64,000 bases of DNA, from contig CP086569.2 of the NCBI GenBank assembly GCA_009914755.4, positions 29,408,001-29,472,000 on the forward strand, read 5' to 3'. The position numbers and the translations under genes are program-made. The notes beneath the pieces are model-generated. The model saw only the letters and a list, made by a program, of their open reading frames with translations. It was not told the DNA's origin and searched no databases. The DNA is from the human T2T-CHM13v2.0 reference genome, Homo sapiens. Shown here piece by piece: positions 21,301 through 60,141 of this stretch. The first letter of the stretch is position 1, and each line of letters starts with the position of its first letter.

Positions 21301-21897
21301 GGAATAATATGAAATGGAATGGAATGGAATGGAATGCCCTTGAATTAAATGGACTGGAATGAAATGGACTCGATCAGAGTGGAATGGAAAGTGTTGAGAT
21401 AGAATGGAATGGACTCCTTTGGAATGGTGTAGTATGCAATGCAATCGACTGGCAGGGAATCAAAAGGAATGTAATCGAATGGATTGGACTGGAATGCAAT
21501 GGACTCGAATAGATTGCAAACGGAATGCAAAGGAATGGAATGGAATAGTATGGAATGGAATGGAAAGGAATGGAGTGGAATAGACTAGAGTGGAATGGAA
21601 TGGACTCGAAAGCAATGGACTGGAATGGAACTTTCTTGAATGGACTGGAATCAAACGGAATGGAATGCAATGCAATCAAATGGCATGGAATAAAATAGAA
21701 TGAAAGAGAATCAAATGGAATTGAATCGAATGGAATCGAATGGATTGGAAAGGAATAGAATGGAATGGAATGGAATTGACTCAAATGGAATGGACTAGAA
21801 TGGAATGGATTCGAATGGAAGGCAAAGGAATGGAATCTATTGGAATGGACTGTAATGGAATGGAATGGAAGGGATTGGAATGGACTCGAATGGAATG
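18349..21897. repeat. HOR unit 6, full length (3549 bp). Its HaeIII site is mutated (GGCC to TGCC at 19961–19964).
   Basis: Collinear with unit 1. The sequence reads 'ggacatgcctgg' where other units have 'ggacaggcctgg'. Confidence 0.85.
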
Positions 21898-24747
21898 GAC
21901 TGCAATAGAAAGGATTCGAATGGAATGAAAAAGAATTGAATGGAATAGAACACAATGGAATCAAATCGAATGAAATGGAATGGAATAGAAAGGAATGGAA
22001 TGAAATGGAATGGAAAGGATTCGAATGGAATGCAATCGAATGGAATGGAATCGAACGGAATGGAATAAAATGGAAGAAAACTGGCAAGAAATGGAATCGA
22101 AATGAATGGAGTGTTATGGAACGGACTCAAAAGGAATTGAATGTAATAGAATGGAGTGGAGTGGACTCGAATATAATGGACTGGAATGGAATGAAATCAC
22201 ATGGAATGGGAACGAATGGAATGGAATGGAAAGGAATGGAATCGAATGGAAAGGAATCGAATGGAAGGGAATGAAATTGAATCAACAGGAATGGAAGGGA
22301 ATAGAATAGACGGTAATGGAATGGACTCGAATAGAATGGACACGAATGCTCAAATTGAATGGACTCGAATGGAATGGAAACGAAAGGAATGTCATCGAAT
22401 GGAATTGAATCGATTGGAATGAAATCGCATAGAATGGAGTGGAATCAAATGGAATTGAATCGAAAGCAAAGGAAGCGAATGGACTGAAATGAAATGGACT
22501 CAAATTGAAAGGGCTCGAAAGGAATGGAGTCAAATGGAATGGTCTGGAATGGAGTGAACACGAATGTAATGCAATCCAATAGAATGGAATCGAATGGCAT
22601 GGAATATAAAGAAATGGAATCGAAGAGAATGGAAACAAATGGAATGGAATTGAATGGAATGGAATTGAATGGAATGGGAACGAATGGAGTGAAATTGTAT
22701 GCAGTAGAAGAGAATAGAATGGAATGCAAGCGAAAGGAAAGGAATGGATTGGAATGGAATGGAATTCATTGGAATGGAAGGGAATGTAGTGTAATGGACA
22801 GGCCTGGAATAAAGTGGAATGCTACGGTCTCGAATTGAATAAAAATGTATGGAATGGAATGCAATGAAACGGAATCGAATGTCATAGAATGTAATGGAAT
22901 GCAAAAAATTGGAATCCAAAATCATTGACTGGAAAGGCTGGGTGTCGAAAGGAATTGACTCCAATGGAATGGAATCGAATGGAATGGAAGTGAATAGAAT
23001 CGAACTAAATCGAATGGAATGGAATTGATAGGAACGGAATGGAAAGGAATGCAATGATTTGGCATGGAGTGGAATCGAATGGCATCGAATGGAATGGAAT
23101 GGAATGCAATGGAATGGAATGTATTAGAATGTAATGAACATTAATGGAATGTACTCGAATGGATTCGACTGGCATGGAATGTTCTGGAAATGAATGGAAT
23201 CCAATGGAATGGATTCAAAAGGAATGGAATCGTACGGAATGGAATCTAATGGAATGGAATTAAATGGAAATGAATCAAATTGAATAGCACGGAATTGAAT
23301 TGAATGGAATCGAATGCAATGGAATCTAATGAAACGGAAAGGAAAGGAATGGAATGGAATGGAATGGGCTGGAATGGAAAGGAATCGAAACGAATGGAAT
23401 GGAATCGAACTGAAGAGACTGGAATGGAATGCACTGGAATGGAAGGGAGTGTAATGGAAGGTTCTCGACAAAAATGGAATCGAATGGAATGGAATTGAAT
23501 GGAACGGAATAGAGTCGAATGGAATTGAATGGAATGGAATGGACTAGAGTGAAATGGAATCGAACCACAAGGAATGGACAGGAATAGAATGGTCTCGAAT
23601 TGAATGGAATCGTATGGAATGGCATCAAACGGAATGGAATGGACAGCCACGGAATGGAATGCACTCGAATGCAATGGAGTCGAAACTAATGGACTGGAAT
23701 AGAATGGACTCGACTGGTACGGACTCCAATGGAATGGAATCGAATGGAAGGGAATCGAATGGAATGGACTCGAAGGGAAAAGACTGCAATGGAAAGGTCT
23801 CGAATGGAATGGAAATTAATGGAATGGAATGGAATCGAATGAAATGGAGTCAAAAGGAATGGAATCGAATGGCAAGAAATCGAATGTAATGGAATCGCAA
23901 GGAATTGATGTGAACGGAACGGAATGGAATGGAATCCAAAGGAATGGAATAGAATGGAATGGAATCGAATGGAAAGGACTCGAATGGAAATCACTAGAAT
24001 AGAAAGCAATTTAATAAAATAGGATCAAATGTAATGGAATGGAATGGAAAGGAATCGAAACGAAAGGAATGGAGACAGATGGAATGGAATGGAACAGAGA
24101 GCAATGGTATAGAATGGAATGGAATCATCTGGAATGGAATTGAATGGAATGGAATAATATGAAATGGAATGGAATGGAATGGAATGCCTTTGAATTAAAT
24201 GGACTGGAATGGAATGGACTCGAACAGAGTGGAATGGAAAGTGATGAGATAGAATGGAATGGACTCGTTTGGAATGGTGTAGTATGCAATGTAATCGACT
24301 GGCAGGGAATCAAAAGGAATGTAATCGAATGGATTGTACTGGAATGCAATGGACTCGAATAGATTGGAAACGGAATGCAAAGGAATGGAATGGAATAGTA
24401 TGGAATGGAATGGAAAGAAATGGAGTGGAATAGACTAGAGTGGAATGGAATGGACTGGAAAGCAATGGACTGGAATGGAACTTTCTTGAATGGACTGGAA
24501 TCAAACGGAATGGAATGCAATGCAATCAAATGGCATGGAATAAAATAGAATGAAAGAGAATCAAATGGAATTGAATCGAATGGAATCGAATGGATTGGAA
24601 AGGAATAGAATGGAATGGTATGGAATTGACTCAAATGGAATGGACTAGAATGGAATGGATTCGAATGGAAGGCAAAGGAATGGAATCTATTGGAATGGAC
24701 TGTAATGGAATGGAATGGAAGGGATTGGAATGGACTCGAATGGAATG
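21898..24747. repeat. HOR unit 7, short variant (2850 bp) lacking about 710 bp (unit offsets ~600–1310)
   Basis: The deletion junction lies at about 22486–22500, 'gactgaaatgaaatgga|ctcaaattgaaaggg'. It fuses two reference ORFs into the single ORF 22282..22638. Confidence 0.8.
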
Positions 24748-27592
24748 GACTGCAATAGAAAGGATTCGAATGGAATGAAAAAGAATTGAATGGAATAGAA
24801 CACAATGGAATCAAATCGAATGAAATGGAATGGAATAGAAAGGAATGGAATGAAATGGAATGGAAAGGATTCGAATGGAATGCAATCGAATGGAATGGAA
24901 TCGAACGGAATGGAATAAAATGGAAGAAAACTGGCAAGAAATGGAATCGAAATGAATGGAGTGTTATGGAACGGACTCAAAAGGAATTGAATGTAATAGA
25001 ATGGAGTGGAGTGGACTCGAATATAATGGACTGGAATGGAATGAAATCACATGGAATGGGAACGAATGGAATGGAATGGAAAGGAATGGAATCGAATGGA
25101 AAGGAATCGAATGGAAGGGAATGAAATTGAATCAACAGGAATGGAAGGGAATAGAATAGACGGTAATGGAATGGACTCGAATAGAATGGACACGAATGCT
25201 CAAATTGAATGGACTCGAATGGAATGGAAACGAAAGGAATGTCATCGAATGGAATTGAATCGATTGGAATGAAATCGCATAGAATGGAGTGGAATCAAAT
25301 GGAATTGAATCGAAAGCAAAGGAAGCGAATGGACTGAAATGAAATGGACTCAAATTGAAAGGGCTCGAAAGGAATGGAGTCAAATGGAATGGTCTGGAAT
25401 GGAGTGAACACGAATGTAATGCAATCCAATAGAATGGAATCGAATGGCATGGAATATAAAGAAATGGAATCGAAGAGAATGGAAACAAATGGAATGGAAT
25501 TGAATGGAATGGAATTGAATGGAATGGGAACGAATGGAGTGAAATTGTATGCAGTAGAAGAGAATAGAATGGAATGCAAGCGAAAGGAAAGGAATGGATT
25601 GGAATGGAATGGAATTCATTGGAATGGAAGGGAATGTAGTGTAATGGACAGGCCTGGAATAAAGTGGAATGCTACGGTCTCGAATGGAATAAAAATGTAT
25701 GGAATGGAATGCAATGAAACGGAATCGAATGTCATAGAATGTAATGGAATGCAAAAAATTGGAATCCAAAATCATTGACTGGAAAGGCTGGGTGTCGAAA
25801 GGAATTGACTCCAATGGAATGGAATCGAATGGAATGGAAGTGAATAGAATCCAACTAAATCGAATGGAATGGAATTGATAGGAACGGAATGGAAAGGAAT
25901 GCAATGATTTGGCATGGAGTGGAATCGAATGGCATCGAATGGAATGGAATGGAATGCAATGGAATGGAATGTATTAGAATGTAATGAACATTAATGGAAT
26001 GTACTCGAATGGATTCGACTGGCATGGAATGTTCTGGAAGTGAATGGAATCCAATGGAATGGATTCAAAAGGAATGGAATCGTACGGAAAGGAATCTAAT
26101 GGAATGGAATTAAATGGAAATGAATCAAATTGAATAGCACGGAATTGAATTGAATGGAATCGAATGCAATGGAATCTAATGAAACGGAAAGGAAAGGAAT
26201 GGAATGGAATGGGCTGGAATGGAAAGGAATCGAAACGAATGGAATGGAATCGAACTGAAGAGACTGGAATGGAATGCACTGGAATGGAAGGGAGTGTAAT
26301 GGAAGGTTCTCGACAAAAATGGAATCGAATGGAATGGAATTGAATGGAACGGAATAGAGTGGAATGGAATTGAATGGAATGGAATGGACTAGAGTGAAAT
26401 GGAATCGAACCACAAGGAATGGACAGGAATAGAATGGTCTCGAATTGAATGGAATCGTATGGAATGGCATCAAACGGAATGGAATGGACAGTCACGGAAT
26501 GGAATGCATTCGAATGCAATGGAGTCGAAACTAATGGACTGGAATAGAATGGACTCGACTGGTACGAACTCCAATGGAATGGAATCGAATGGAAGGGAAT
26601 CGAACGGAATGGACTCGAAGGGAAAAGACTGCAATGGAAAGGTCTCGAATGGAATGGAAATTAATGGAATGGAATGGAATCGAATGAAATGGAGTCAAAA
26701 GGAATGGAATCGAATGGCAAGAAATCGAATGTAATGGAATCGCAAGGAATTGATGTGAACGGAACGGAATGGAATGGAATCCAAAGGAATGGAATCGAAT
26801 GGAATGGAATCGAATGGAAAGGACTCGAATGGAAATCACTCGAATAGAATGCAATTTAATAAAATAGGATCAAATGTAATGGAATGGAATGGAAAGGAAT
26901 CGAAACGAAAGGAATGGAGACAGATGGAATGGAATGGAACAGAGAGCAATGGTATAGAATGGAATGGAATCATCTGGAATGGAATTGAATGGAATGGAAA
27001 AATATGAAATGGAATGGAATGGAATGGAATGTCCTTGAATTAAATGGACTGGCATGGAATGGACTCGAACAGAGTGGAATGGAAAGTGTTGAAATAGAAT
27101 GTAATGGACTCCTTTGGAATGGTCTAGTATGCAATGCAATCGACTGGCAGGGAATCAAAAGGAATGTAATCGAATGGATTGGACTGGAATGCAATGGACT
27201 CGAATAGATTGGAAACGGAAAGCAAAGGAATGGAATGGAATAGTATGGAATGGAATGGAAAGGAATGGAGTGGAATAGACTAGAGTGGAATGGAATGGAC
27301 TCGAAAGCAATGGACTGTAATGGAACTTTCTTGAATGGACTGGAATCAAACGGAATGGAATGCAATGCAATCAAATGGCATGGAATAAAATAGAATGAAA
27401 GAGAATCAAATGGAATTGAATCGAATGGAATCGAATGGATTGGAAAGGAATAGAATGGAATGGAATGGAATTGACTCAAATGGAATGGACTAGAATGGAA
27501 TGGATTCGAATGGAAGGCAAAGGAATGGAATCTATTGGAATGGACTGTAATGGAATGGAATGGAAGGGATTGGAATGGACTCGAATGGAATA
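24748..27592. repeat. HOR unit 8, short variant (2845 bp)
   Basis: Same junction as unit 7 (fused ORF 25132..25488). Near-identical to unit 7. Confidence 0.8.
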
Positions 27593-30427
27593 GACTGCAA
27601 TAGAAAGGATTCGAATGGAATGAAAAAGAATTGAATGGAATAGAACAGAATGGAATCAAATCGAATGAAATGGAATGGAATAGAAAGGAATGGAATGAAA
27701 TGGAATGGAAAGGATTCGAATGGAATGCAATCGAATGGAATGGAATCGAACGGAATGGAATAAAATGGAAGAAAACTGGCAAGAAATGGAATCGAAATGA
27801 ATGGAGTGTTATGGAACGGACTCAAAAGGAATTGAATGTAATAGAATGGAGTGGAGTGGACTCGAATATAATGGACTGGAATGGAATGAAATCACATGGA
27901 ATGGGAACGAATGGAATGGAATGGAAAGGAAAGGAATCGAATGGAAGGGAATGAAATTGAATCAACAGGAATGGAAGGGAATAGAATAGACGGTAATGGA
28001 ATGGACTCGAATAGAATGGACACGAATGCACAAATTGAATGGACTCGAATGGAATGGAAACGAAAGGAATGTCATCGAATGGAATTGAATCGATTGGAAT
28101 GAAATCGCATAGAATGGAGTGGAGTCAAATGGAATTGAAACGAAAGCAAAGGAAGCGAATGGACTGAAATGAAATGGACTCAAATTGAAAGGGCTCGAAA
28201 GGAATGGAGTCAAATGGAATGGTCTGGAATGGAATGAACACGAATGTAATGCAATCCAATAGAATGGAATCGAATGGCATGGAATATAAAGAAATGGAAT
28301 CGAAGAGAATGGAAACAAATGGAATGGAATTGAATGGAATGGAATTGAATGGAATGGGAACGAATGGAGTGAAATTGTATGCAGTAGAAGAGAATAGAAT
28401 GGAATACAAGCGAAAGGAAAGGAATGGATTGGAATGGAATGGAATTCATTGGAATGGAAGGGAATGTAGTGTAATGGACAGGCCTGGAATAAAGTGGAAT
28501 GCTACGGTCTCGAATGGAATAAAAATGTATGGAATGGAATGCAATGAAACGGAATCGAATGTCATAGAATGTAATGGAATGCAACAAAATGGAATCCAAA
28601 ATCATTGACTGGAAAGGCTGGGTGTCGAAAGGAATTGACTCCAATGGAATGGAATCGAATGGAATGGAAGTGAATAGAATCGAACTAAATCGAATGGAAT
28701 GGAATTGATAGGAACGGAATGGAAAGGAATGCAATGATTTGGCATGGAATGGAATCGAATGGCATCGAATGGAATGGAATGGAATGCAATGGAATGGAAT
28801 GTATTAGAATGTAATGAACATTAATGGAATGTACTCGAATGGATTCGACTGGCATGGAATGTTCTGGAAGTGAATGGAATCCAATGGAATGGATTCAAAA
28901 GGAATGGAATCGTACGGAATGGAATCTAATGGAATGGAATTAAATGGAAATGAATCAAATTGAATAGCACGGAATTGAATTGAATGGAATCGAATGCAAT
29001 GGAATCTAATGAAACGGAAAGGAAAGGAATGGAATGGAATGGAATGGGCTGGAATGGAAAGGAATCGAAACGAATGGAATGGAATCGAACTGAAGAGACT
29101 GGAATGGAATGCACTGGAATGGAAGGGAGTGTAATGGAAGGTTCTCGACAAAAATGGAATCGAATGGAATGGAATTGAATGGAACGGAATAGAGTCGAAT
29201 GGAATTGAATGGAATGGAATGGACTAGAGTGAAATGGAATCGAACCACAAGGAATGGACAGGAATAGAATGGTCTCGAATTGAATGGAATCGTATGGAAT
29301 GGCATCAAACGGAATGGAATGGACAGCCACGGAATGGAATGCACTCGAATGCAATGGAGTCGAAACTAATGGACTGGAATAGAATGGACTCGACTGGTAG
29401 GGACTCCAATGGAATGGAATCGAATGGAAGGGAATCGAATGGAATGGACTCGAAGGGAAAAGACTGCAATGGAAAGGTATCGAATGGAATGGAAATTAAT
29501 GGAATGGAATGGAATCGAATGAAATGGAGTCAAAAGGAATGGAATCGAATGGCAAGAAATCGAATGTAATGGAATCGCAAGGAATTGATGTGAACGGAAC
29601 GGAATGGAATGGAATCCAAAGGAATGGAATAGAATGGAATGGAATCGAATGGAAAGGACTCGAATGGAAATCACTCGAATAGAAAGCAATTTAATAAAAT
29701 AGGATCAAATGTAATGGAATGGAATGGAAAGGAATCGAAACGAAAGGAATGGAGACAGATGGAATGGAATGGAACAGAGAGCAATGGTATAGAATGGAAT
29801 GGAATCATCTGGAATGGAATTGAATGGAATGGAATAATATGAAATGGAATGGAATGGAATGGAATGCCTTTGAATTAAATGGACTGGAATGGAATGGACT
29901 CGAACAGAGTGGAATGGAAAGTGATGAGATAGAATGGAATGGACTCGTTTGGAATGGTCTAGTATGCAATGCAATCGACTGGCAGGGAATCAAAAGGAAT
30001 GTAATCGAATGGATTGTACTGGAATCCAATGGACTCGAATAGATTGGAAACGGAATGCAAAGGAATGGAATGGAATAGTATGGAATGGAATGGAAAGAAA
30101 TGGAGTGGAATAGACTAGAGTGGAATGGAATGGACTCGAAAGCAATGGACTGGAATGGAACTTTCTTGAATGGACTGGAATCAAACGGAATGGAATGCAA
30201 TGCAATCAAATGGCATGGAATAAAATAGAATGAAAGAGAATCAAATGGAATTGAATCGAATGGAATCGAATGGATTGGAAAGGAATAGAATGGAATGGAA
30301 TGGAATTGACTCAAATGGAATGGACTAGAATGGAATGGATTCGAATGGAAGGCAAAGGAATGGAATCTATTGGAATGGACTGTAATGGAATGGAATGGAA
30401 GGGATTGGAATGGACTCGAATGGAATG
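27593..30427. repeat. HOR unit 9, short variant (2835 bp)
   Basis: Same deletion junction (fused ORF 27962..28318). Its private variants are shared with unit 11. Confidence 0.8.
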
Positions 30428-33400
30428 GACTGCAATAGAAAGGATTCGAATGGAATGAAAAAGAATTGAATGGAATAGAACACAATGGAATCAAATCGAA
30501 TGAAATGGAATGGAATAGAAAGGAATGGAATGAAATGGAATGGAAAGGATTCGAATGGAATGCAATCGAATGGAATGGAATCGAACGGAATGGAATAAAA
30601 TGGAAGAAAACTGGCAAGAAATGGAATCGAAATGAATGCAGTGTTATGGAACGGACTCAAAAGGAATTGAATGTAATAGAATGGAGTGGAGTGGACTCGA
30701 ATATAATGGACTGGAAGGGAATGAAATCACATGGAATGGGAACGAATGGAATGGAATGGAAAGGAATGGAATCGAATGGAAAGGAATCGAATGGAAGGGA
30801 ATGAAATTGAATCAACAGGAATGGAAGGGAATAGAATAGACGGTAATGGAATGGACTCGAATAGAATGGACACGAATGCTCAAATTGAATGGACTCGAAT
30901 GGAATGGAAACGAAAGGAATGTCATCGAATGGAATTGAATCGATTGGAATGAAATCGCATAGAATGGAGTGGAATCAAATGGATTTGAATCGAAAGGAAA
31001 GGAAGCGAATGGACTGAAATGAAATGGAATGGAATTGAATGGAAAGTAATGCAATGGAATAGAATGGAACGAAATTTCACGGAATGGAATCAAACTGAAT
31101 GGAATCAAATCAATGGAATCAAATCAAATGGAATGGAAAGGAATTGAATGGAGTAGATTGGATTGGATGGGATTGGAATGAAATGTACTGGAAAGGACTC
31201 GAATTTCATGAAACGGAATGGAATGAATTGGAACGGAAGGGACTCGAATGGAATGGAATGTCATGGAATGGCATCAAATGGAATGACATCAAATGGAATG
31301 GAATCGAATACAATGGAATGTTATGGAATGGAATGGAATGCATTGGAATGGAATGTCCTCTAATGGAATGGATTCGAGTGGAATGGAATCGAATATAATG
31401 GAGTCGAATGAAATGGAATTGAAAGGAATGGGATCGAATAGAATGGAATATACTGGAATGTAATGTAATGAACTGGAATGTAATTGACTGGAATGGAATG
31501 TAGATGAATGGAATGTAATCGAATGGAAAGTAATCCAATGGAATAGAATCTAATGCAATAAAACCGACTCAGATAGAGTAGAATGTAATGGAATGGAGTG
31601 CAGTGCAATGGAATGGAATGGAATTGAATGGAATGGAATGGAATGGAATGGAATGGAATGGAATGGGATGGAATGGTATGGAATGGATAGTAATGGACTG
31701 GAGTGAAATGGACTGGAAAGGAATGGACTCAAATTGAAAGGGCTCGAAAGGAATGGAGTCAAATGGAATGGTCTGGAATGGAATGAACACGAATGTAATG
31801 CAATCCAATAGAATGGAATCGAATGGCATGGAATATAAAGAAATGGAATCGAAGAGAATGGAAACAAATGGAATGGAATTGAATGGAATGGAATTGAATG
31901 GAATGGGAACGAATGGAGTGAAATTGTATGCAGTAGAAGGGAATAGAATGGAATGCAAGCGAAAGGAAAGGAATGGATTGGAATGGAATGGAATTCATTG
32001 GAATGGAAGGGAATGTAGTGTAATGCACAGGCCTGGAATAAAGTGGAATGCTACGGTCTCGAATGGAATAAAAATGTATGGAATGGAATGCAATGAAACG
32101 GAATCGAATGTCATAGAATGTAATGGAATGCAACAAAATGGAATCCAAAATCATTGACTGGAAAGGCTGGGTGTCGAAAGGAATTGACTCCAATGGAATG
32201 GAATCGAATGGAATGGAAGTGAATAGAATCGAACTAAATCGAAAGGAATGGAATTGATAGGAACGGAATGGAAAGGAATGCAATGATTTGGCATGGGATG
32301 GAATCGAATGGCATCGAATGGAATGGAATGGAATGGAATGGAATGGAATGGAATGGAATGGAATGTATTAGAATGTAATGAACATTAATGGAATGTACTC
32401 TAATGGATTCGACTGTAATGGAATGTTCTGGAAGTGAATGGACTCCAATGGAATGGATTCGAAAGGAATGGAATCGAACGGAATGGATTCTAATGGAATG
32501 GAATGAAATGGAAATGAATCAAATTGAATAGCACGGAATTGAATTGAATGGAATCGAATGCAATGGAATCTAATGAAACGGAAAGGAAAGGAATGGAATG
32601 GAATGGAATGGGCTGGAATGGAATGGAATGGAAACGAATGGAATGGAATCGAACTGAAGAGACTGGAATGGAATGCACTGGAACGGAAGGGAGTGTAATG
32701 GAAGGTTCTCGAGAAAATGGAATCGAATGGAATGGAATTGAATAGAACGGAATAGAGTCGAATGGAATTCAATGGAATGGAATGGACTAGAATGAAATGG
32801 AATCGAACCACAAGGAATGGACAGGAATAGAATGGTCTCGAATTGAATGGAATCGTATGGAATGGCATCAAACGGAATGGAATGGACAGCCACGGAATGG
32901 AATGCACTCGAATGCAATGGAGTCGAAACTAATGGACTGGAATAGAATGGACTCGACTGGTACGGACTCCAATGTAATGGAATCGAATGGAAGGGAATCG
33001 AACGGAATGGACTCGAAGGGAAAAGACTGCAACGGAAAGGTCTCGAATGGAATGGAAATTAATGGAATGGAATGGAATCGAATGAAATGGAGTCAAAAGG
33101 AATGGAATCGAATGGCAAGAAATCGAATGTAATGGAATCGCAAGGAATTGTTGTGAACGGAACGGAATGGAATGGAATCCAAAGGAATGGAATAGAATGG
33201 AATGGAATCGAATGGAAAGGACTCGAATGGAAATCACTCGAATAGAATGCAATTTAATAAAATAGGATCAAATGTAATGGAATGGAATGGAAAGGAATCG
33301 AAACGAAAGGAATGGAGACAGATGGAATGGAATGGAACAGAGAGCAATGGTATAGAATGGAATGGAATCCTCTGGAATGGAATTGAATGGAATGGAATAA

Positions 33401-33990
33401 TATGAAATGGAATGGAATGGAATGGAATGCCCTTGAATTAAATGGACTGGAATGGAATGGACTCGAACAGAGTGGAATGGAAAGTGTTGAAATAGAATGG
33501 AATGGACTCCTTTGGAATGGTGTAGTATGCAATGCAATCGACAGGCAGGGAATCAAAAGGAATGTAATCGAATGGATTGGACTGGAATGCAATGGACTCA
33601 AATAGATTGGAAACGGAATGCAAAGGAATGGAATGGAATAGTATGGAATGGAATGGAAAGGAATGGAGTGGAATAGACTAGAGTGGAATGGAATGGACTA
33701 GAAAGCAATGGACTGGAATGGAACTTTCTTGAATGGACTGGAATCAAACGGAATGGAATGCAATGCAATCAAATGGCATGGAATAAAATAGAATGAAAGA
33801 GAATCAAATGGAATTGAATCGAATGGAATCGAATGGATTGGAAAGGAATAGAATGGAATGGAATGGAATTGACTCAAATGGAATGGACTAGAATGGAATG
33901 GATTCGAATGGAAGGCAAAGGAATGGAATCTATTGGAATGGACTGTAATGGAATGGAATGGAAGGGATTGGAATGGACTCGAATGGAATG
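30428..33990. repeat. HOR unit 10, full length (3563 bp)
   Basis: Contains the complete offset 600–1310 region. Near-identical to unit 12. Confidence 0.85.
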
Positions 33991-36825
33991 GACTGCAATA
34001 GAAAGGATTCGAATGGAATGAAAAAGAATTGAATGGAATAGAACAGAATGGAATCAAATCGAATGAAATGGAATGGAATAGAAAGGAATGGAATGAAATG
34101 GAATGGAAAGGATTCGAATGGAATGCTATCGAATGGAATGGAATCGAACGGAATGGAATAAAATGGAAGAAAACTGGCAAGAAATGGAATCGAAATGAAT
34201 GGAGTGTTATGGAACGGACTCAAAAGGAATTGAATGTAATAGAATGGAGTGGAGTGGACTCGAATATAATGGACTGGAATGGAATGAAATCACATGGAAT
34301 GGGAACGAATGGAATGGAATGGAAAGGAAAGGAATCGAATGGAAGGGAATGAAATTGAATCAACAGGAATGGAAGGGAATAGAATAGACGGTAATGGAAT
34401 GGACTCGAATAGAATGGACACGAATGCACAAATTGAATGGACTCGAATGGAATGGAAACGAAAGGAATGTCATCGAATGGAATTGAATCGATTGGAATGA
34501 AATCGCATAGAATGGAGTGGAGTCAAATGGAATTGAAACGAAAGCAAAGGAAGCGAATGGACTGAAATGAAATGGACTCAAATTGAAAGGGCTCGAAAGG
34601 AATGGAGTCAAATGGAATGGTCTGGAATGGAATGAACACGAATGTAATGCAATCCAATAGAATGGAATCGAATGGCATGGAATATAAAGAAATGGAATCG
34701 AAGAGAATGGAAACAAATGGAATGGAATTGAATGGAATGGAATTGAATGGAATGGGAACGAATGGAGTGAAATTGTATGCAGTAGAAGAGAATAGAATGG
34801 AATACAAGCGAAAGGAAAGGAATGGATTGGAATGGAATGGAATTCATTGGAATGGAAGGGAATGTAGTGTAATGGACAGGCCTGGAATAAAGTGGAATGC
34901 TACGGTCTCGAATGGAATAAAAATGTATGGAATGGAATGCAATGAAACGGAATCGAATGTCATAGAATGTAATGGAATGCAACAAAATGGAATCCAAAAT
35001 CATTGACTGGAAAGGCTGGGTGTCGAAAGGAATTGACTCCAATGGAATGGAATCGAATGGAATGGAAGTGAATAGAATCGAACTAAATCGAATGGAATGG
35101 AATTGATAGGAACGGAATGGAAAGGAATGCAATGATTTGGCATGGAATGGAATCGAATGGCATCGAATGGAATGGAATGGAATGCAATGGAATGGAATGT
35201 ATTAGAATGTAATGAACATTAATGGAATGTACTCGAATGGATTCGACTGGCATGGAATGTTCTGGAAGTGAATGGAATCCAATGGAATGGATTCAAAAGG
35301 AATGGAATCGTACGGAATGGAATCTAATGGAATGGAATTAAATGGAAATGAATCAAATTGAATAGCACGGAATTGAATTGAATGGAATCGAATGCAATGG
35401 AATCTAATGAAACGGAAAGGAAAGGAATGGAATGGAATGGAATGGGCTGGAATGGAAAGGAATCGAAACGAATGGAATGGAATCGAACTGAAGAGACTGG
35501 AATGGAATGCACTGGAATGGAAGGGAGTGTAATGGAAGGTTCTCGACAAAAATGGAATCGAATGGAATGGAATTGAATGGAACGGAATAGAGTCGAATGG
35601 AATTGAATGGAATGGAATGGACTAGAGTGAAATGGAATCGAACCACAAGGAATGGACAGGAATAGAATGGTCTCGAATTGAATGGAATCGTATGGAATGG
35701 CATCAAACGGAATGGAATGGACAGCCACGGAATGGAATGCACTCGAATGCAATGGAGTCGAAACTAATGGACTGGAATAGAATGGACTCGACTGGTAGGG
35801 ACTCCAATGGAATGGAATCGAATGGAAGGGAATCGAATGGAATGGACTCGAAGGGAAAAGACTGCAATGGAAAGGTATCGAATGGAATGGAAATTAATGG
35901 AATGGAATGGAATCGAATGAAATGGAGTCAAAAGGAATGGAATCGAATGGCAAGAAATCGAATGTAATGGAATCGCAAGGAATTGATGTGAACGGAACGG
36001 AATGGAATGGAATCCAAAGGAATGGAATAGAATGGAATGGAATCGAATGGAAAGGACTCGAATGGAAATCACTCGAATAGAAAGCAATTTAATAAAATAG
36101 GATCAAATGTAATGGAATGGAATGGAAAGGAATCGAAACGAAAGGAATGGAGACAGATGGAATGGAATGGAACAGAGAGCAATGGTATAGAATGGAATGG
36201 AATCATCTGGAATGGAATTGAATGGAATGGAATAATATGAAATGGAATGGAATGGAATGGAATGCCTTTGAATTAAATGGACTGGAATGGAATGGACTCG
36301 AACAGAGTGGAATGGAAAGTGATGAGATAGAATGGAATGGACTCGTTTGGAATGGTCTAGTATGCAATGCAATCGACTGGCAGGGAATCAAAAGGAATGT
36401 AATCGAATGGATTGTACTGGAATGCAATGGACTCGAATAGATTGGAAACGGAATGCAAAGGAATGGAATGGAATAGTATGGAATGGAATGGAAAGAAATG
36501 GAGTGGAATAGACTAGAGTGGAATGGAATGGACTCGAAAGCAATGGACTGGAATGGAACTTTCTTGAATGGACTGGAATCAAACGGAATGGAATGCAATG
36601 CAATCAAATGGCATGGAATAAAATAGAATGAAAGAGAATCAAATGGAATTGAATCGAATGGAATCGAATGGATTGGAAAGGAATAGAATGGAATGGAATG
36701 GAATTGACTCAAATGGAATGGACTAGAATGGAATGGATTCGAATGGAAGGCAAAGGAATGGAATCTATTGGAATGGACTGTAATGGAATGGAATGGAAGG
36801 GATTGGAATGGACTCGAATGGAATG
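33991..36825. repeat. HOR unit 11, short variant (2835 bp), near-identical copy of unit 9
   Basis: ORFs 34602.. and 35764.. are identical to 28204.. and 29366... The offset between the copies is 6398 bp. Confidence 0.85.
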
Positions 36826-39800
36826 GACTGCAATAGAAAGGATTCGAATGGAATGAAAAAGAATTGAATGGAATAGAACACAATGGAATCAAATCGAATG
36901 AAATGGAATGGAATAGAAAGGAATGGAATGAAATGGAATGGAAAGGATTCGAATGGAATGCATTCGAATGGAATGGAATCGAACGGAATGGAATAAAATG
37001 GAAGAAAACTGGCAAGAAATGGAATCGAAATGAATGCAGTGTTATGGAACGGACTCAAAAGGAATTGAATGTAATAGAATGGAGTGGAGTGGACTCGAAT
37101 ATAATGGACTGGAAGGGAATGAAATCACATGGAATGGGAACGAATGGAATGGAATGGAAAGGAATGGAATCGAATGGAAAGGAATCGAATGGAAGGGAAT
37201 GAAATTGAATCAACAGGAATGGAAGGGAATAGAATAGACGGTAATGGAATGGACTCGAATAGAATGGACACGAATGCTCAAATTGAATGGACTCGAATGG
37301 AATGGAAACGAAAGGAATGTCATCGAATGGAATTGAATCGATTGGAATGAAATCGCATAGAATGGAGTGGAATCAAATGGATTTGAATCGAAAGGAAAGG
37401 AAGCGAATGGACTGAAATGAAATGGAATGGAATTGAATGGAAAGTAATGCAATGGAATAGAATGGAACGAAATTTCACGGAATGGAATCAAACTGAATGG
37501 AATCAAATCAATGGAATCAAATCAAATGGAATGGAAAGGAATTGAATGGAGTAGATTGGATTGGATGGGATTGGAATGAAATGTACTGGAAAGGACTCGA
37601 ATTTCATGAAACGGAATGGAATGAATTGGAACGGAAGGGACTCGAATGGAATGGAATGTCATGGAATGGCATCAAATGGAATGACATCAAATGGAATGGA
37701 ATCGAATACAATGGAATGTTATGGAATGGAATGGAATGCATTGGAATGGAATGTCCTCTAATGGAATGGATTCGAGTGGAATGGAATCGAATATAATGGA
37801 GTCGAATGAAATGGAATTGAAAGGAATGGGATCGAATAGAATGGAATATACTGGAATGTAATGTAATGAACTGGAATGTAATTGACTGGAATGGAATGTA
37901 GATGAATGGAATGTAATCGAATGGAAAGTAATCCAATGGAATAGAATCTAATGCAATAAAACCGACTCAGATAGAGTAGAATGTAATGGAATGGAGTGCA
38001 GTGCAATGGAATGGAATGGAATTGAATGGAATGGAATGGAATGGAATGGAATGGAATGGAATGGGATGGAATGGTATGGAATGGATAGTAATGGACTGGA
38101 GTGAAATGGACTGGAAAGGAATGGACTCAAATTGAAAGGGCTCGAAAGGAATGGAGTCAAATGGAATGGTCTGGAATGGAATGAACACGAATGTAATGCA
38201 ATCCAATAGAATGGAATCGAATGGCATGGAATATAAAGAAATGGAATCGAAGAGAATGGAAACAAATGGAATGGAATTGAATGGAATGGAATTGAATGGA
38301 ATGGGAACGAATGGAGTGAAATTGTATGCAGTAGAAGGGAATAGAATGGAATGCAAGCGAAAGGAAAGGAATGGATTGGAATGGAATGGAATTCATTGGA
38401 ATGGAAGGGAATGTAGTGTAATGCACAGGCCTGGAATAAAGTGGAATGCTACGGTCTCGAATGGAATAAAAATGTATGGAATGGAATGCAATGAAACGGA
38501 ATCGAATGTCATAGAATGTAATGGAATGCAACAAAATGGAATCCAAAATCATTGACTGGAAAGGCTGGGTGTCGAAAGGAATTGACTCCAATGGAATGGA
38601 ATCGAATGGAATGGAAGTGAATAGAATCGAACTAAATCGAAAGGAATGGAATTGATAGGAACGGAATGGAAAGGAATGCAATGATTTGGCATGGGATGGA
38701 ATCGAATGGCATCGAATGGAATGGAATGGAATGGAATGGAATGGAATGGAATATAATGGAATGTATTAGAATGTAATGAACATTAATGGAATGTACTCTA
38801 ATGGATTCGACTGTAATGGAATGTTCTGGAAGTGAATGGACTCCAATGGAATGGATTCGAAAGGAATGGAATCGAACGGAATGGATTCTAATGGAATGGA
38901 ATGAAATGGAAATGAATCAAATTGAATAGCACGGAATTGAATTGAATGGAATCGAATGCAATGGAATCTAATGAAACGGAAAGGAAAGGAATGGAATGGA
39001 ATGGAATGGGCTGGAATGGAATGGAATGGAAACGAATGGAATGGAATCGAACTGAAGAGACTGGAATGGAATGCACTGGAACGGAAGGGAGTGTAATGGA
39101 AGGTTCTCGAGAAAATGGAATCGAATGGAATGGAATTGAATAGAACGGAATAGAGTCGAATGGAATTCAATGGAATGGAATGGACTAGAATGAAATGGAA
39201 TCGAACCACAAGGAATGGACAGGAATAGAATGGTCTCGAATTGAATGGAATCGTATGGAATGGCATCAAACGGAATGGAATGGACAGCCACGGAATGGAA
39301 TGCACTCGAATGCAATGGAGTCGAAACTAATGGACTGGAATAGAATGGACTCGACTGGTACGGACTCCAATGTAATGGAATCGAATGGAAGGGAATCGAA
39401 CGGAATGGACTCGAAGGGAAAAGACTGCAACGGAAAGGTCTCGAATGGAATGGAAATTAATGGAATGGAATGGAATCGAATGAAATGGAGTCAAAAGGAA
39501 TGGAATCGAATGGCAAGAAATCGAATGTAATGGAATCGCAAGGAATTGTTGTGAACGGAACGGAATGGAATGGAATCCAAAGGAATGGAATAGAATGGAA
39601 TGGAATCGAATGGAAAGGACTCGAATGGAAATCACTCGAATAGAATGCAATTTAATAAAATAGGATCAAATGTAATGGAATGGAATGGAAAGGAATCGAA
39701 ACGAAAGGAATGGAGACAGATGGAATGGAATGGAACAGAGAGCAATGGTATAGAATGGAATGGAATCCTCTGGAATGGAATTGAATGGAATGGAATAATA

Positions 39801-40388
39801 TGAAATGGAATGGAATGGAATGGAATGCCCTTGAATTAAATGGACTGGAATGGAATGGACTCGAACAGAGTGGAATGGAAAGTGTTGAAATAGAATGGAA
39901 TGGACTCCTTTGGAATGGTGTAGTATGCAATGCAATCGACAGGCAGGGAATCAAAAGGAATGTAATCGAATGGATTGGACTGGAATGCAATGGACTCAAA
40001 TAGATTGGAAACGGAATGCAAAGGAATGGAATGGAATAGTATGGAATGGAATGGAAAGGAATGGAGTGGAATAGACTAGAGTGGAATGGAATGGACTGGA
40101 AAGCAATGGACTGGAATGGAACTTTCTTGAATGGACTGGAATCAAACGGAATGGAATGCAATGCAATCAAATGGCATGGAATAAAATAGAATGAAAGAGA
40201 ATCAAATGGAATTGAATCGAATGGAATCGAATGGATTGGAAAGGAATAGAATGGAATGGAATGGAATTGACTCAAATGGAATGGACTAGAATGGAATGGA
40301 TTCGAATGGAAGGCAAAGGAATGGAATCTATTGGAATGGACTGTAATGGAATGGAATGGAAGGGATTGGAATGGACTCGAATGGAATG
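36826..40388. repeat. HOR unit 12, full length (3563 bp), near-identical copy of unit 10
   Basis: ORFs 38151.. and 38766.. are identical to 31753.. and 32368... Confidence 0.85.
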
Positions 40389-43300
40389 GACTGCAATAGA
40401 AAGGATTCGAATGGAATGAAAAAGAATTGAATGGAATAGAACAGAATGGAATCAAATCGAATGAAATGGAATGGAATAGAAAGGAATGGAATGAAATGGA
40501 ATGGAAAGGATTCGAATGGAATGCTATCGAATGGAATGCAATCGAACGGAATGGAATCGAACAGAATGGAATAAAATGGAAGAAAACTGGCAAGAAATGG
40601 AATCGAAATGAATGGAGTGTTATGGAACGGACTCCAAAGGAATTGAATGTAATAGAATGGAGTGGAGTGGACTCGAATATAATGGACTGGAATGGAATGA
40701 AATCACATGGAATGGGAACGAATGGAATGGAATGGAAAGGAATGGAATCGAATGGAAAGGAATCGAATGGAAGGGAATGAAATTGAATCAACGGAATGGA
40801 AGGGAGTAGAATAGACGGTAATTGAATGGACTCGAATAGAATGGACAGGAATGCTCAAATTGAATGGACTCGAATGGAAAGGAAACGAAAGGAATGTCAT
40901 CGAATGGAATTGATTCGATTGGAATGAAATGACATAAAAAGGAGTGGAATGACATGGAATTGAATCGAAAGGAAAGGAAGCGAATGAACTGAAATGAAAT
41001 GGAAAGGAATTGAATGGAAAGTAATGCAATGGAATAGAATGGAACGAAATTTCACGGAATGGAATCAAACTGAATGGAATCAAATCAATGGAATATAATC
41101 AAATGGAATGGAAAGGAATTGAATGGAGTAGATGGGATTGGATGGGATTGGAATGAAATGTACTGGAAAGGACTCGAATTTCATGAAACGGAATGGAATG
41201 AATTGGAACGGAATGGACTCGAATGGAATGGAATGTCATGGGATGGCAACAAATGGAATGGCATCAAATGGAATGGAATCGAATGCAATGGAATGCTATG
41301 GAATGGAATGGAATGCATTGGAATGGAATGTCCTCTAATGGAATGGATTCGAGTGGAATGGAATCGAATATAATGGAGTCGAATGAAATGGAATTGAAAG
41401 GAATGGGATCGAATACAATGGAATATACTGCAATGTAACGTAATGAACTCGAATGTAATCGACTGGAATGGAATATACATGAATCGAATGTAATCGAATG
41501 GAAAGTAATCCAATGGAATAGAATCTAATGCAATAAAATCGACTCAAATAGAATAGAATGTAATGGAATGGAGTGCAGTGCAATGGAATGGAATGGAATG
41601 GAATGCAATGGAATGGAATGGAATGGAATGGAATGGCATGGAATGGTATGGAATGGATAGTAATGGACTGGAGTGAAATGGACTGGAAAGGAATGGACTC
41701 AAATTGAAAGGGCTCGAAAGGAATGGAGTCAAATGGAATGGTCCGGAATGGAATGAACACGAATGTAATGCAATCCAATAGAATGGAATCGAATGGCATG
41801 GAATATAAAGAAATGGAATCGAAGAGAATGGAAACAAATGGAATGGAATTGAATGGAATGGAATTGAATGGAATGGGAACGAATGGAGTGAAATTGTATG
41901 CAGTAGAAGAGAATAGAATGGAATGCAAGCGAAAGGAAAGGAATGGATTGGAATGGAATGGAATTCATTGGAATGGAAGGGAATGTAGTGTAATGGACAG
42001 GCCTGGAATAAAGTGGAATGCTACGGTCTCGAATGGAATAAAAATGTATGGAATGGAATGCAATGAAACGGAATCGAATGTCATAGAATGTAATGGAATG
42101 CAAAAAAATGGACTCCAAAATCATTGACTGGAAAGGCTGGGTGTCGAAAGGAATTGACTCCAATGGAATGGAATCGAATGGAATGGAAGTGAATAGAATC
42201 GAACTAAATCGAATGGAATGGAATGGATAAGAACGGAATGGAAAGGAATGCAATGATTTGGCATGGAATGGAATCGAATGTCATGGAATGGAATGGAATG
42301 GAATGCAATGGAGTGGAATGTATTAGAATGTAATGAACTTTAATGGAATGTACTCGAATGGATTCGACTGGAATGGAATGTTCTGTAAGTAAATAGACTC
42401 CAATGGAATGGATTCGAAAGGAATGGAATCGAACGGAATGGAATCTAATGGAATGGAATTAAATGGAAATGAATCAAATTGAATAGCACGGAATTGAATT
42501 GAATGGAATCGAAAGCAATGGAATCTAATGTAACGGAAAGGAAAGGAATGGAATGGAATGGAATGGGCTGGAATGGAATGGAATCGAAACGAATGGAATG
42601 GAATCGAACTGAAGAGACTGGAATGGAATGCACTGGAATGGAAGGGAGTGTAATGGAAGGTTCTCGACAAAAATGGAATCGAATGGAGTGGAATTGAATG
42701 GAACGGAATAGAGTCGAATGGAATTGAATGGAATGGAATGGACTAGAGTGAAATGGAATCGAACCACAAGGAATGGACAGGAATAGAATGGTCTCGAATT
42801 GAATGGAATCGTATGGAATGGCATCAAACGGAATGGAATGGACAGCCACGGAATGGAATGCACTCGAATGCAATGGAGTCGAAACTAATGGACTGGAATA
42901 GAATGGACTCGACTGGTACGGACTCCAATGGAATGGAATCGAATGGAAGGGAATCGAACGGAATGGACTCGAAGGGAAAAGACTGCAATGGAAAGGTATC
43001 GAATGGAATGGAAATTAATGGAATGGAATGGAATCGAATGAAATGGAGTCAAAAGGAATGGAATCGAATGGCAAGAAATCGAATGTAATGGAATCGCAAG
43101 GAATTGATGTGAACAGAACGGAATGGAATGGAATCCAAAGGAATGGAATAGAATGGAATGGAATCGAATGGAAAGGACTCGAATGGAAATCACTCGAATA
43201 GAATGCAATTTAATAAAATAGGATCAAATGTAATGGAATGGAATGGAAAGGAATCGAAACGAAAGGAATGGAGACAGATGGAATGGAATGGAACAGAGAG

Positions 43301-46900: not shown

Positions 46901-47475
46901 AATGGAATGCAATGTCCTTGAATTAAATGGACTGGAATGAAATGGACTCGAACAGAGTGGAATGGAAAGTGTTGAAATAGAATGGAATGGACTCCTTTGG
47001 AATGGTGTAGTATGCAATGCAATCGACAGGCAGGGAATCAAAAGGAATGTAATGGAATGGATTGGACTGGAATGCAATGGACTCGAATAGATTGGAAACG
47101 GAAAGCAAAGGAATGGAATGGAATAGTATGGAATGGAATGGAAAGGAATGGAGTGGAATAGACTAGAGTGGAATGGAATGGACTCGAAAGCAATGGACTG
47201 GAATGGAACTTTCTTGAATGGACTGGAATCAAACGGAATGGAATGCAATGCAATCAAATGGCATGGAATAAAATAGAATGAAAGAGAATCAAATGGAATT
47301 GAATCGAATGGAATCGAATGGATTGGAAAGGAATAGAATGGAATGGAATGGAATTGACTCAAATGGAATGGACTAGAATGGAATGGATTCGAATGGAAGG
47401 CAAAGGAATGGAATCTATTGGAATGGACTGTAATGGAATGGAATGGAAGGGATTGGAATGGACTCGAATGGAATG
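43927..47475. repeat. HOR unit 14, full length (3549 bp)
   Basis: Collinear with unit 1. It shares private variants with unit 15. Confidence 0.85.
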
Positions 47476-59700: not shown

Positions 59701-60141
59701 GTATGCAATGCAATCGACTGGCAGGGAATCAAAAGGAATGTAATCGAATGGATTGGACTGGAATGCAATGGACTCGAATAGATTGGAAACGGAAAGCAAA
59801 GGAATGGAATGGAATAGTATGGAATGGAATGGAAAGGAATGGAGTGGAATAGAATAGAGTGGAATGGAATGGACTCGAAAGCAATGGACTGTAATGGAAC
59901 TTTCTTGAATGGACTGGAATCAAACGGAATGGAATGCAATGCAATCAAATGGCATGGAATAAAATAGAATGAAAGAGAATCAAATGGAATTGAATCGAAT
60001 GGAATCGAATGGATTGGAAAGGAATAGAATGGAATGGAATGGAATTGACTCAAATGGAATGGACTAGAATGGAATGGATTCGAATGGAAGGCAAAGGAAT
60101 GGAATGGAATGGAAGGGATTGGAATGGACTCGAATGGAATG
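56704..60141. repeat. HOR unit 18 (3438 bp): a short variant carrying a 620-bp tandem duplication (56806–57425 repeated at 57426–58045) and a ~25-bp deletion near 60100
   Basis: The duplication junction at about 57425 reads 'aaagaaatggaat|gaaatggaatggaaaggattcgaa'. The deletion junction appears twice (about 57296 and about 57917), and the variant 'cgaaagtaatgg' is present in both copies. Confidence 0.75.

What the first reader, a model, noticed from the sequence alone, without database searches (positions are those of the whole stretch)
27593..40388. Near-identical 6.4-kb super-repeat (short unit plus full unit duplicated in tandem)
Units 9+10 (27593–33990) and units 11+12 (33991–40388) are offset by exactly 6398 bp. 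They share many private variants: the ORFs at 28204, 29366, 31753 and 32368 are identical to those at 34602, 35764, 38151 and 38766. This indicates a very recent two-unit duplication and a local second-order HOR. Only small differences separate the copies, for example the pentamer tract 32316–32364 versus 38701–38760.
Basis: seen in the sequence. Interest (0 to 1): 0.55.

Follow-up and report, generated by a model that had tools for sequence, protein, structure and literature searches.

The report
Recent two-unit duplication in Y-chromosome satellite
The window is human Y-chromosome DYZ1 satellite DNA, and the finding is a real, recent 6,398-base tandem duplication made by a misaligned exchange between repeat units, which is the ordinary, already described way this satellite grows and shrinks.

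Summary
Blocks 27593-33990 and 33991-40388 align without gaps at offset 6398 with 6 mismatches (99.91 %). Other same-type unit pairs in the window differ by 0.4-3.1 % (medians 1.1 % short, 1.8 % full).

The whole 64-kb window is human Yq12 DYZ1 (HSat3A6). It is GGAAT-derived, has a ~3.56-kb nested unit with one HaeIII site, and matches published DYZ1 primers once per unit.

The block pairs a 2,850-bp deletion-variant unit with a 3,548-bp full unit. Unit U10 (30856-34403) is a clean recombinant. It follows U12 at every informative site up to 34127 and follows U8 from 34141 on. A single in-register unequal exchange within 34128-34140 therefore duplicated exactly 6,398 bp (27730-34127 and 34128-40525). 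Only four mutational events have accumulated since, two per copy. That gives roughly 800 generations at the published Yq12 mutation rate, and more than ten times longer at a euchromatic rate.

"HOR" overstates a two-copy duplication. The claimed pentamer-tract length difference is really a GG/AT substitution. The ORFs are artefacts of translating a satellite.

Unequal sister-chromatid exchange in Yq12 is already documented, so this is ordinary and interest is low.

The parts
27730..34127 (.). Copy 1 of the duplicated 6,398-bp segment. It consists of the tail of short unit U8 (276 bp), the whole of short unit U9 (2,850 bp) and the head of full unit U10 (3,272 bp).
   Evidence: Offset-6398 near-identity runs 27730-34140 versus 34128-40538. 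The informative-site switch in U10 fixes the phase.
34128..40525 (.). Copy 2 of the duplicated segment. It consists of the tail of U10 (of U8 origin), the whole of U11 and the head of U12.
   Evidence: It differs from copy 1 by 4 mutational events (5 bases).
34128..34140 (.). Recombinant junction: the 13-bp interval that contains the unequal-exchange point inside hybrid unit U10. The parental equivalents are 27730-27742 in U8 and 40526-40538 in U12.
   Evidence: U10 carries the U12-private T at 34127. Immediately after, it lacks the 15-bp GGAATGCAATCGAAC insertion that U12 has at 40533-40547. All later informative sites match U8.
25176..28005 (.). U8, a short DYZ1 unit of subtype b and the left parental unit. 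Left of 27319 it differs from U10 by about 2.2 %. Its last 276 bp are identical to the tail of U10.
28006..30855 (.). U9, a short DYZ1 unit of 2,850 bp (subtype a), lacking reference positions 174-886.
   Evidence: It differs from U11 at 2 of 2,850 positions.
30856..34403 (.). U10, a full DYZ1 unit of 3,548 bp. It is a hybrid: U12-type head (30856-34127) and U8-type tail (34141-34403).
   Evidence: More than 60 informative columns match U12 before the junction, and 7 events (2 x 15-bp indel, 1-bp indel, 4 substitutions) match U8 after it. The only exceptions are 32355-6 and 33700, which match neither parent and are read as later mutations.
34404..37253 (.). U11, a short DYZ1 unit of 2,850 bp and the duplicate of U9.
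37254..40830 (.). U12, a full DYZ1 unit of 3,577 bp and the right parental unit. Its last ~300 bp (40533-40830) differ from the U10 tail by two 15-bp insertions, a 1-bp deletion and 4 substitutions.
30026..30026 (.). Post-duplication substitution in copy 1. C is derived: position 36424 and 17 other units have G.
36963..36963 (.). Post-duplication substitution in copy 2. T is derived: position 30565 and 18 other units have A.
38753..38754 (.). Post-duplication dinucleotide change in copy 2. GG became AT inside a (GAATG)10 tract that is private to U10 and U12. Copy 1 keeps GG at 32355-6.
33700..33700 (.). Post-duplication substitution in copy 1. A is probably derived: position 40098 has G, and the other units have C or G.
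28162..28191 (+). Deletion junction that defines the 2.85-kb short unit, joining reference position 173 to 887 across an ATGGA-type microhomology. The same junction occurs in all ten short or fragment units, including 34560-34589 in U11.
32030..32033 (.). The single HaeIII (GGCC) site of unit U10. There is one site per unit across the block (28481, 32030, 34879, 38428), giving fragments of 3,549 / 2,849 / 3,549 bp.

Best explanation
The window is human Y-chromosome long-arm heterochromatin, the DYZ1 satellite (HSat3A6). Its ~3.56-kb unit is itself a nested repeat built from degenerate GGAAT pentamers.

The ancestral local order was U8 (short) - U9 (short) - U12 (full). Two copies of the array, most likely sister chromatids, paired out of register by two units. 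The tail of the full unit lay against the homologous tail of the short unit two positions upstream. A single homologous exchange within a 13-bp interval (34128-34140) then joined them.

The product carries a hybrid unit, U10, with a U12-type head and a U8-type tail. It also carries a second copy of everything between the two paired points, which is exactly 6,398 bp (27730-34127 duplicated as 34128-40525). Four mutational events have arisen since, two in each copy.

Shown by the sequence: the satellite's identity, the period, the near-identity, the hybrid unit, the position of the junction and the polarity of the four changes.

Inferred: that the exchange was between sister chromatids rather than by intrachromatid or replication-based template switching, and the age. 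The age is about 800 generations (95 % interval 220-2,070) at the published Yq12 rate of 3.86e-7 per bp per generation. It would be about 12,500 generations at an assumed euchromatic rate of about 2.5e-8 per bp per generation.

The duplication has no function of its own. It is one step in the turnover that expands, contracts and homogenises this satellite.
For: Identity as DYZ1:
- Pentamer periodicity runs over 21-63965.
- A ~3.55-kb unit recurs across the window.
- There is one HaeIII site per unit, with fragments of 3,524-3,584 bp. The literature gives 3,564/3,569 bp (PMC3925983; Hallast et al. 10.1101/2022.12.01.518658, main text and supplement).
- All eight published DYZ1 primers of PMC3925983 Table 5 match about once per unit.
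- The classic Y1.1/Y1.2 primer pair (recalled from memory) matches convergently and gives a 154-bp amplicon in every unit.
- GC is 38-39 % and CpG density is 1 per 33.7 bp. Hallast et al. give 38 % and 1 per 35 bp.
- 39 independent copies sit in bacterial-genome and metagenome contigs, the best at 96-99 % identity to unit U5. I read these as contaminants. The T2T-Y paper describes such HSat3 contamination of bacterial records.

Duplication:
- 6 mismatches in 6,398 bp at offset 6398.
- The near-identical stretch is 6,411 bp, one period plus 13 bp.
- Flanking divergence is about 2.2 % on the left and about 1.5 % plus three indels on the right.

Hybrid unit:
- There is a clean switch of parental state in U10 between 34127 and 34141.

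Polarity:
- Two derived changes lie in each copy.

Mechanism in the literature:
[quoted passage not shown] - The Yq12 mutation rate comes from PMC12240836.
Against: The sequence alone cannot separate unequal sister-chromatid exchange from replication slippage, template switching or break-induced replication at the same homologous points. Hallast et al. also leave gene conversion and slippage open.

No reads are available, so a false duplication by the assembler cannot be formally excluded.

The age depends on a mutation rate that differs more than tenfold between Yq12 satellite and Y euchromatin, and the Yq12 rate includes conversion-like events.

The source assembly and individual are unknown, so I could not test whether the duplication is polymorphic.
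Confidence: 0.88

Rival explanations
1. Gene conversion rather than duplication. The array already held two short+full dimers, and a long non-reciprocal conversion tract overwrote one dimer with the sequence of the other.
For: Conversion-like events are frequent in Yq12: 29 % of de novo SNVs match non-orthologous sites (PMC12240836). The window holds shorter near-identical tracts of 1.0-2.3 kb that are shorter than their period and could be conversion tracts.
Against: The near-identical stretch is 6,411 bp for a period of 6,398 bp. A conversion tract has no reason to equal one period to within 13 bp, whereas a tandem duplication must. U10's tail is identical to the tail of U8, the unit one period upstream, exactly as a crossover product predicts.
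Confidence: 0.05
2. Assembly artefact. The assembler falsely duplicated one 6.4-kb stretch of a highly repetitive array.
For: Yq12 is among the hardest regions to assemble. Near-identical tandem copies are a typical form of false duplication. No read data could be checked here.
Against: The two copies differ at four places, with derived states split two and two between them, including a dinucleotide change. The junction is an in-register homologous hybrid with a single clean parental switch. The flanking units have normal divergence. The Y is haploid, so haplotype mixing is not expected.
Confidence: 0.05
3. An established second-order higher-order repeat. On this view a 6.4-kb short+full dimer is the local repeating unit of this part of the array.
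For: Two adjacent dimers exist with an exact 6,398-bp period. The window does show second-order structure among the short units (b+a dimers).
Against: Only two copies exist. The units on either side are short-short (U7, U8) and full-full-full (U13-U15). The near-identity covers one period only. The older dimer pattern in the window is b+a (about 5.68 kb), not short+full.
Confidence: 0.02

Closest known systems
DYZ1 / HSat3A6 satellite of human Yq12
   Same: It is derived from the GGAAT/CATTC pentamer and has a ~3.56-kb nested unit with a single HaeIII site. Fragments of 3,524-3,584 bp include one of 3,568 bp. All published DYZ1 primers match once per unit. GC is 38-39 % and CpG density is about 1 per 34 bp. 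Most units are over 98 % identical (literature).
   Different: About half the units in this window are a 2.83-2.85-kb variant that lacks ~713 bp (reference 174-886). This length class is not mentioned in the texts I read. Its junction was absent from the JGI metagenome collection and from 39 external DYZ1 loci. It is not the published '2.7-kbp' DYZ18/DYZ1 hybrid repeat, because every part of it aligns to DYZ1.
Unequal sister-chromatid exchange in tandem arrays (Smith-type unequal crossing over), as invoked for Yq12, DYZ19 and centromeric alpha-satellite HORs
   Same: The duplication is in register and spans a whole number of units. It has a hybrid unit at the junction, near-identity over exactly one period, and older divergence outside. 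The T2T-Y and Hallast papers give the same mechanism for Yq12.
   Different: Published descriptions concern kilobase-to-megabase blocks seen on dot plots. Here a single event is resolved to a 13-bp exchange interval. The sister-chromatid nature of the exchange is inferred, not shown.
Alpha-satellite higher-order repeats (HORs)
   Same: Several diverged base units are combined into a larger block that is copied with very high identity.
   Different: A HOR is a periodicity kept over many copies, and this is one duplication (two copies). The base unit here is already a 3.56-kb nested repeat of a pentamer, not a 171-bp monomer. No centromere function is implied.

Membership tests
DYZ1 / HSat3A6 (human Yq12 satellite) | Built from degenerate copies of the pentamer TTCCA/GGAAT | tested here: met
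   TRF reports period 5 with consensus GAATG over 21-63965. PMC3925983 and the T2T-Y paper describe the pentamer.
DYZ1 / HSat3A6 (human Yq12 satellite) | Nested tandem unit of about 3.56 kb, cut once by HaeIII (classical 3.4/3.56-kb male-specific band; 3,564/3,569-bp fragments) | tested here: met
   There is one GGCC per unit. Full-unit fragments are 3,524-3,584 bp, including one of 3,568 bp. Short units give 2,805-2,850 bp.
DYZ1 / HSat3A6 (human Yq12 satellite) | Matches published DYZ1-specific PCR primers in the expected order and spacing | tested here: met
   Primers A-H of PMC3925983 Table 5 match once per unit: C, D, E and F exactly, A, B, G and H with at most 1-2 errors. Y1.1/Y1.2 (recalled from memory, not found in the paper library) match convergently with a 154-bp product in every unit.
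DYZ1 / HSat3A6 (human Yq12 satellite) | Base composition of about 38 % GC and about 1 CpG per 35 bp | tested here: met
   GC is 0.377-0.397 and CpG density is 1 per 33.7 bp. Hallast et al. give the reference values.
DYZ1 / HSat3A6 (human Yq12 satellite) | Physical location on Yq12, alternating with DYZ2/HSat1B blocks | not testable with these tools
   No human reference genome is available in the tools. No DYZ2 sequence lies within the 64-kb window, which fits published DYZ1 block sizes of 50 kb to 3.6 Mb.
Tandem duplication by unequal homologous exchange | The near-identical stretch at offset P has length equal to P | tested here: met
   P = 6,398 and the stretch is 6,411 bp.
Tandem duplication by unequal homologous exchange | A hybrid repeat unit at the junction with a single switch between the two parental variant patterns | tested here: met
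   U10 equals U12 at every informative site up to 34127 and equals U8 at every one from 34141. The only exceptions are 32355-6 and 33700, which match neither parent and are read as later mutations.
Tandem duplication by unequal homologous exchange | The exchange was between sister chromatids, as opposed to replication-based template switching | not testable with these tools
   This would need the reciprocal deletion product or pedigree or single-cell data. The literature supports frequent SCE in Yq12.
Higher-order repeat (HOR) in the alpha-satellite sense | The multi-unit block is reiterated many times with high inter-copy identity | tested here: not met
   There are only two short+full dimers, and the neighbours are short-short and full-full-full.
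   Five ORFs were scanned. None reaches a Pfam gathering score. There are only below-threshold hits to pentapeptide-repeat and other low-complexity families.

The most novel reading that the evidence does not exclude
The 2.85-kb deletion variant of DYZ1, with its two subtypes arranged as b+a dimers, together with the 6.4-kb duplication, may mark an uncatalogued local DYZ1 subfamily that is possibly specific to a Y lineage. Its junctions (the 173/887 deletion junction and the 34128-34140 hybrid junction) could then serve as unique structural markers. They could be used to date and trace array turnover across Y haplogroups.
Probability: 0.25. Interest if true: 0.25.

Novelty: already known. Interest (0 to 1): 0.15.

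Why it matters
It matters little beyond bookkeeping. Human Yq12 has been assembled completely in many individuals, and local duplication by unequal exchange is the accepted way DYZ1 and DYZ2 arrays evolve.

The modest value lies in the resolution. One exchange event is mapped to a 13-bp interval. Both parental units are still present next to the product, and four dated changes have followed. That makes it a tidy worked example. It could also help calibrate the rate of array turnover against point mutation if the same locus were compared across Y haplogroups or pedigrees.

Tried and rejected
- **Self-megablast.** A run with a percent-identity filter returned nothing useful, because HSPs run across the whole array. 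I replaced it with chaining of exact 250-mers.
- **Y1.1/Y1.2 primers in the literature.** Searches of the paper library for these primer strings found no paper. That test rests on my memory of the primers. I replaced it with the eight primers printed in PMC3925983.
- **Short-unit deletion junction elsewhere.** A scan of metagenome contigs found 0 matches. The junction and the U10/U12-private variants are also absent from 39 external DYZ1 loci. No independent copy of the short variant or of the duplication was obtained.
- **External long contigs.** BNJT/BNJU contigs (L010, L011, L019, L027, L033) carry many gap openings (32-183 per alignment of 2.7-3.6 kb). I judged them too noisy for fine comparison and did not use them to estimate how common such duplications are.
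- **Coding potential.** I considered and rejected it: there are no Pfam families above threshold.
- **Structured RNA.** I considered and rejected it: no Rfam family reaches its gathering score in 26000-41500.
- **Identity with the published 2.7-kbp DYZ18/DYZ1 hybrid repeat.** I rejected this because the whole short unit aligns to the DYZ1 unit.


Full report
**What the window is**

Tandem Repeats Finder reports one array of period 5 (consensus GAATG) from 21 to 63965. Composition is uniform at 38-39 % GC with strong G-over-C and A-over-T skew.

On top of the pentamer there is a unit of about 3.55 kb. It is marked by a 23-bp doublet that recurs every 3.52-3.58 kb or every 2.83-2.85 kb. Taking that marker as phase, I defined 20 units, U1 to U20. 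Mapping unique 18-mers of U5 onto the window gave three results:
- The 'short' units (U7, U8, U9, U11, U16, U17, U19, U20) lack reference positions 174-886, about 713 bp.
- U4 (4,103 bp) is rearranged.
- U18 is a 619-bp fragment.

**Identity as human DYZ1**

Every unit has a single HaeIII site. Full-unit fragments are 3,524-3,584 bp, including one of 3,568 bp. DYZ1 is classically defined as the male-specific 3.4/3.56-kb HaeIII fragment (3,564 bp in PMC3925983). Virtual digestion of complete Yq12 assemblies gives mostly 3,564/3,569-bp fragments (Hallast et al.).

All eight DYZ1 primers printed in PMC3925983 Table 5 match about once per unit. C, D, E and F match exactly, and the others match with one or two errors. 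Primers B and E match only in the full units, so they lie inside the segment that the short units have lost.

The Y1.1/Y1.2 pair, which I recalled from memory as the classic DYZ1 sexing primers, matches convergently in every unit and gives a 154-bp product. I could not find those strings in the paper library, so that test rests on memory.

CpG density is 1 per 33.7 bp and GC is 38-39 %. These agree with the 1 per 35 bp and 38 % that Hallast et al. give for DYZ1.

A scan of public collections with the conserved primer site found 39 loci in bacterial genome assemblies and metagenomes. The best of them are 96-99 % identical to U5. The T2T-Y paper describes this kind of HSat3 contamination of bacterial records.

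I conclude with high confidence that the window is human Yq12 DYZ1 (HSat3A6). The window's minus strand is the conventional TTCCA strand.

**Checking the observation**

At offset 6398, blocks 27593-33990 and 33991-40388 align without gaps and have 6 mismatches, or 99.906 % identity. The period equals 2,850 + 3,548 bp, one short unit plus one full unit.

In a multiple alignment of all units, U9/U11 differ at 2 of 2,850 positions (0.07 %) and U10/U12 at 7 of 3,547 (0.20 %). The other 27 short-short pairs range from 0.49 to 1.34 % (median 1.07). The other 44 full-full pairs range from 0.42 to 3.13 % (median 1.77).

U10 and U12 share 27 variant events found in no other unit, and U9 and U11 share 3.

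Chaining of exact 250-mers shows that the stretch is the longest near-identical repeat in the window, at 6,411 bp. The next longest are 2,349, 2,069, 1,331 and 1,066 bp.

No mismatch lies inside them.

One detail is wrong. The pentamer tracts do not differ in length: 32316-32365 corresponds to 38714-38763, and the only difference is GG versus AT at 32355-6 / 38753-4.

**Anatomy of the event**

The mismatch list at offset 6398 shows three zones:
- About 2.2 % divergence from 26346 to 27318.
- Only 8 mismatches from 27319 to 34140.
- Loss of register after 34140.

A gapped alignment beyond that point shows that the U10 tail and the U12 tail differ by two 15-bp indels, a 1-bp indel and four substitutions in about 270 bp. 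That is ordinary inter-unit divergence.

I then asked, at every column where U8 and U12 differ, which of the two U10 follows. From its start (30856) to 34127, U10 follows U12 at every informative site. The only exceptions are 32355-6 and 33700, where it matches neither. From 34141 to its end (34403), U10 follows U8 at every site. The raw sequences confirm this. U10 carries the T at 34127 that is otherwise private to U12. Directly afterwards it lacks the GGAATGCAATCGAAC insertion and the later variants of U12, just as U8 does.

U10 is therefore a single-switch recombinant, and the exchange point lies within 34128-34140. The equivalent intervals are 27730-27742 in U8 and 40526-40538 in U12.

The duplicated segment is 27730-34127, repeated as 34128-40525. 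Its length is 276 bp of U8 tail plus 2,850 bp of U9 plus 3,272 bp of U10 head, which sums to 6,398 bp. The near-identical stretch (6,411 bp) equals one period plus the 13 bp in which the parents do not differ. That is the expected signature of a single tandem duplication. A conversion tract would have no reason to have that length. The inferred ancestral order is U8-U9-U12.

**Changes since the event, and age**

Within the true duplicated segment, four mutational events separate the copies. Comparison with the other units polarises them:
- 30026 C is derived in copy 1.
- 36963 T is derived in copy 2.
- 38753-4 AT is derived in copy 2.
- 33700 A is probably derived in copy 1.

At the pedigree-based Yq12 rate of 3.86e-7 per bp per generation (PMC12240836), four events over 2 x 6,398 bp give about 810 generations (Poisson 95 % interval 220-2,070). 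That is a few tens of thousands of years. At a euchromatic rate of about 2.5e-8 (my own approximate figure), the estimate is about 12,500 generations. 'Very recent' is right relative to the 1-2 % divergence of neighbouring units, but the absolute age is uncertain by more than tenfold.

**Mechanism**

This is an in-register, whole-unit duplication with a hybrid junction unit, which is what unequal homologous exchange between misaligned arrays produces. The male-specific Y has no homologue, so sister chromatids are the likely partners.

[quoted passage not shown] The sequence cannot separate exchange from replication-based template switching at the same points. That step is inference.

**Rivals**

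*Long-tract gene conversion* is disfavoured by the match between tract length and period, and by the identity of U10's tail to the unit one period upstream.

*Assembly artefact* is disfavoured by the four differences split two and two between the copies, and by the clean homologous junction. It cannot be excluded without reads.

*A true second-order HOR* is not supported. There are only two dimers, flanked by short-short (U7, U8) and full-full-full (U13-U15).

*Coding or RNA function* is not supported. None of five ORFs scanned reaches a Pfam gathering score, and the only hits are below-threshold matches to pentapeptide-repeat and other low-complexity families. I read those hits as an effect of translating a 5-bp repeat. 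No Rfam family reaches its gathering score in 26000-41500.

**Comparison with what is known, and verdict**

The sequence meets every sequence-based criterion of DYZ1 that I could test. Only chromosomal location could not be tested. The event is an instance of the unequal exchange already described for Yq12.

The only less familiar element is the 2.85-kb deletion variant. Its junction is shared by all ten short or fragment units, so it has a single origin. It falls into two subtypes with 13 fixed differences, arranged as b+a dimers. It was absent from the metagenome collection and from the 39 external DYZ1 loci. It is distinct from the published 2.7-kbp DYZ18/DYZ1 repeat.

The mechanism is resolved to near base level, but the phenomenon is ordinary and already known. 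Interest is low.

Noticed in passing
window 22326-30855, 34404-37253, 51453-64000: The 2.83-2.85-kb short DYZ1 units all share one deletion junction (reference 173 joined to 887 across an ATGGA-type microhomology). They fall into two subtypes separated by 13 fixed differences: a (U7, U9, U11, U17, U20) and b (U8, U16, U19). They occur as b+a dimers (U8+U9, U16+U17, U19+U20) that differ by 0.5-0.9 % between dimers and 1.07-1.27 % between the two partner units of a dimer. This is an older second-order periodicity of about 5.68 kb.
   Followed up: partly
window 11115-15217: Unit U4 is 4,103 bp long and the most diverged unit (2.3-4.0 % from all others). Reference positions 816-1523 occur a second time (13634-14351) in place of reference positions ~2531-2700. 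This gives two HaeIII sites (12294, 14013; fragments 1,719 + 2,399 bp) and two copies of the Y1.1/Y1.2 amplicon.
   Followed up: no
window 57132-57750: U18 is a 619-bp fragment unit made of reference positions 1-173, 887-1014 and 3228-3559. It is a short unit of b type with a further ~2.2-kb internal deletion, and it sits between two b+a dimers.
   Followed up: no
window 44591-46939 vs 48140-50488; 54938-57006 vs 61211-63279; 52225-53555 vs 58523-59853; 21770-22835 vs 24620-25685: There are further near-identical tracts of 2,349, 2,069, 1,331 and 1,066 bp at offsets 3549, 6273, 6298 and 2850. Each is shorter than its period. They look like older duplications partly eroded, or gene-conversion tracts.
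   Followed up: no
L001-L006 (bacterial genome records) and L007-L039 (metagenome contigs): DYZ1 units sit in records titled Actinomadura cremea JCM 3308, Streptomyces kurssanovii JCM 4388, Streptosporangium violaceochromogenes JCM 3281, Streptomyces sp. NPDC050549, Senimuribacter sp. and a Polyangiaceae MAG, at 96.5-98.9 % identity to U5. Further copies sit in 33 metagenome loci, whose best alignments range from about 72 to 99 % identity. I read these as human male DNA contamination. Several contigs are about 3.6 kb, one collapsed unit.
   Followed up: partly
window 29805-30617 (-), 32368-32907 (-), and generally the minus strand: Long open frames of up to 379 aa occur on both strands, the longest on the minus strand. 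The perfect ATTCC repeat has no stop codon in any frame, which probably explains the long minus-strand frames. Translations give below-threshold hits to Pentapeptide_4, Extensin_1 and LD_SV2, which I read as effects of the repeat periodicity.
   Followed up: yes
window 40533-40547 and 40739-40753 (U12); the first also in U3: Some units carry 15-bp (three-pentamer) insertions, GGAATGCAATCGAAC and GGAATGGAATCGAAT, and others lack them. PMC3925983 also reports 15-bp indels between DYZ1 clones. The first insertion is shared by U3 and U12.
   Followed up: no
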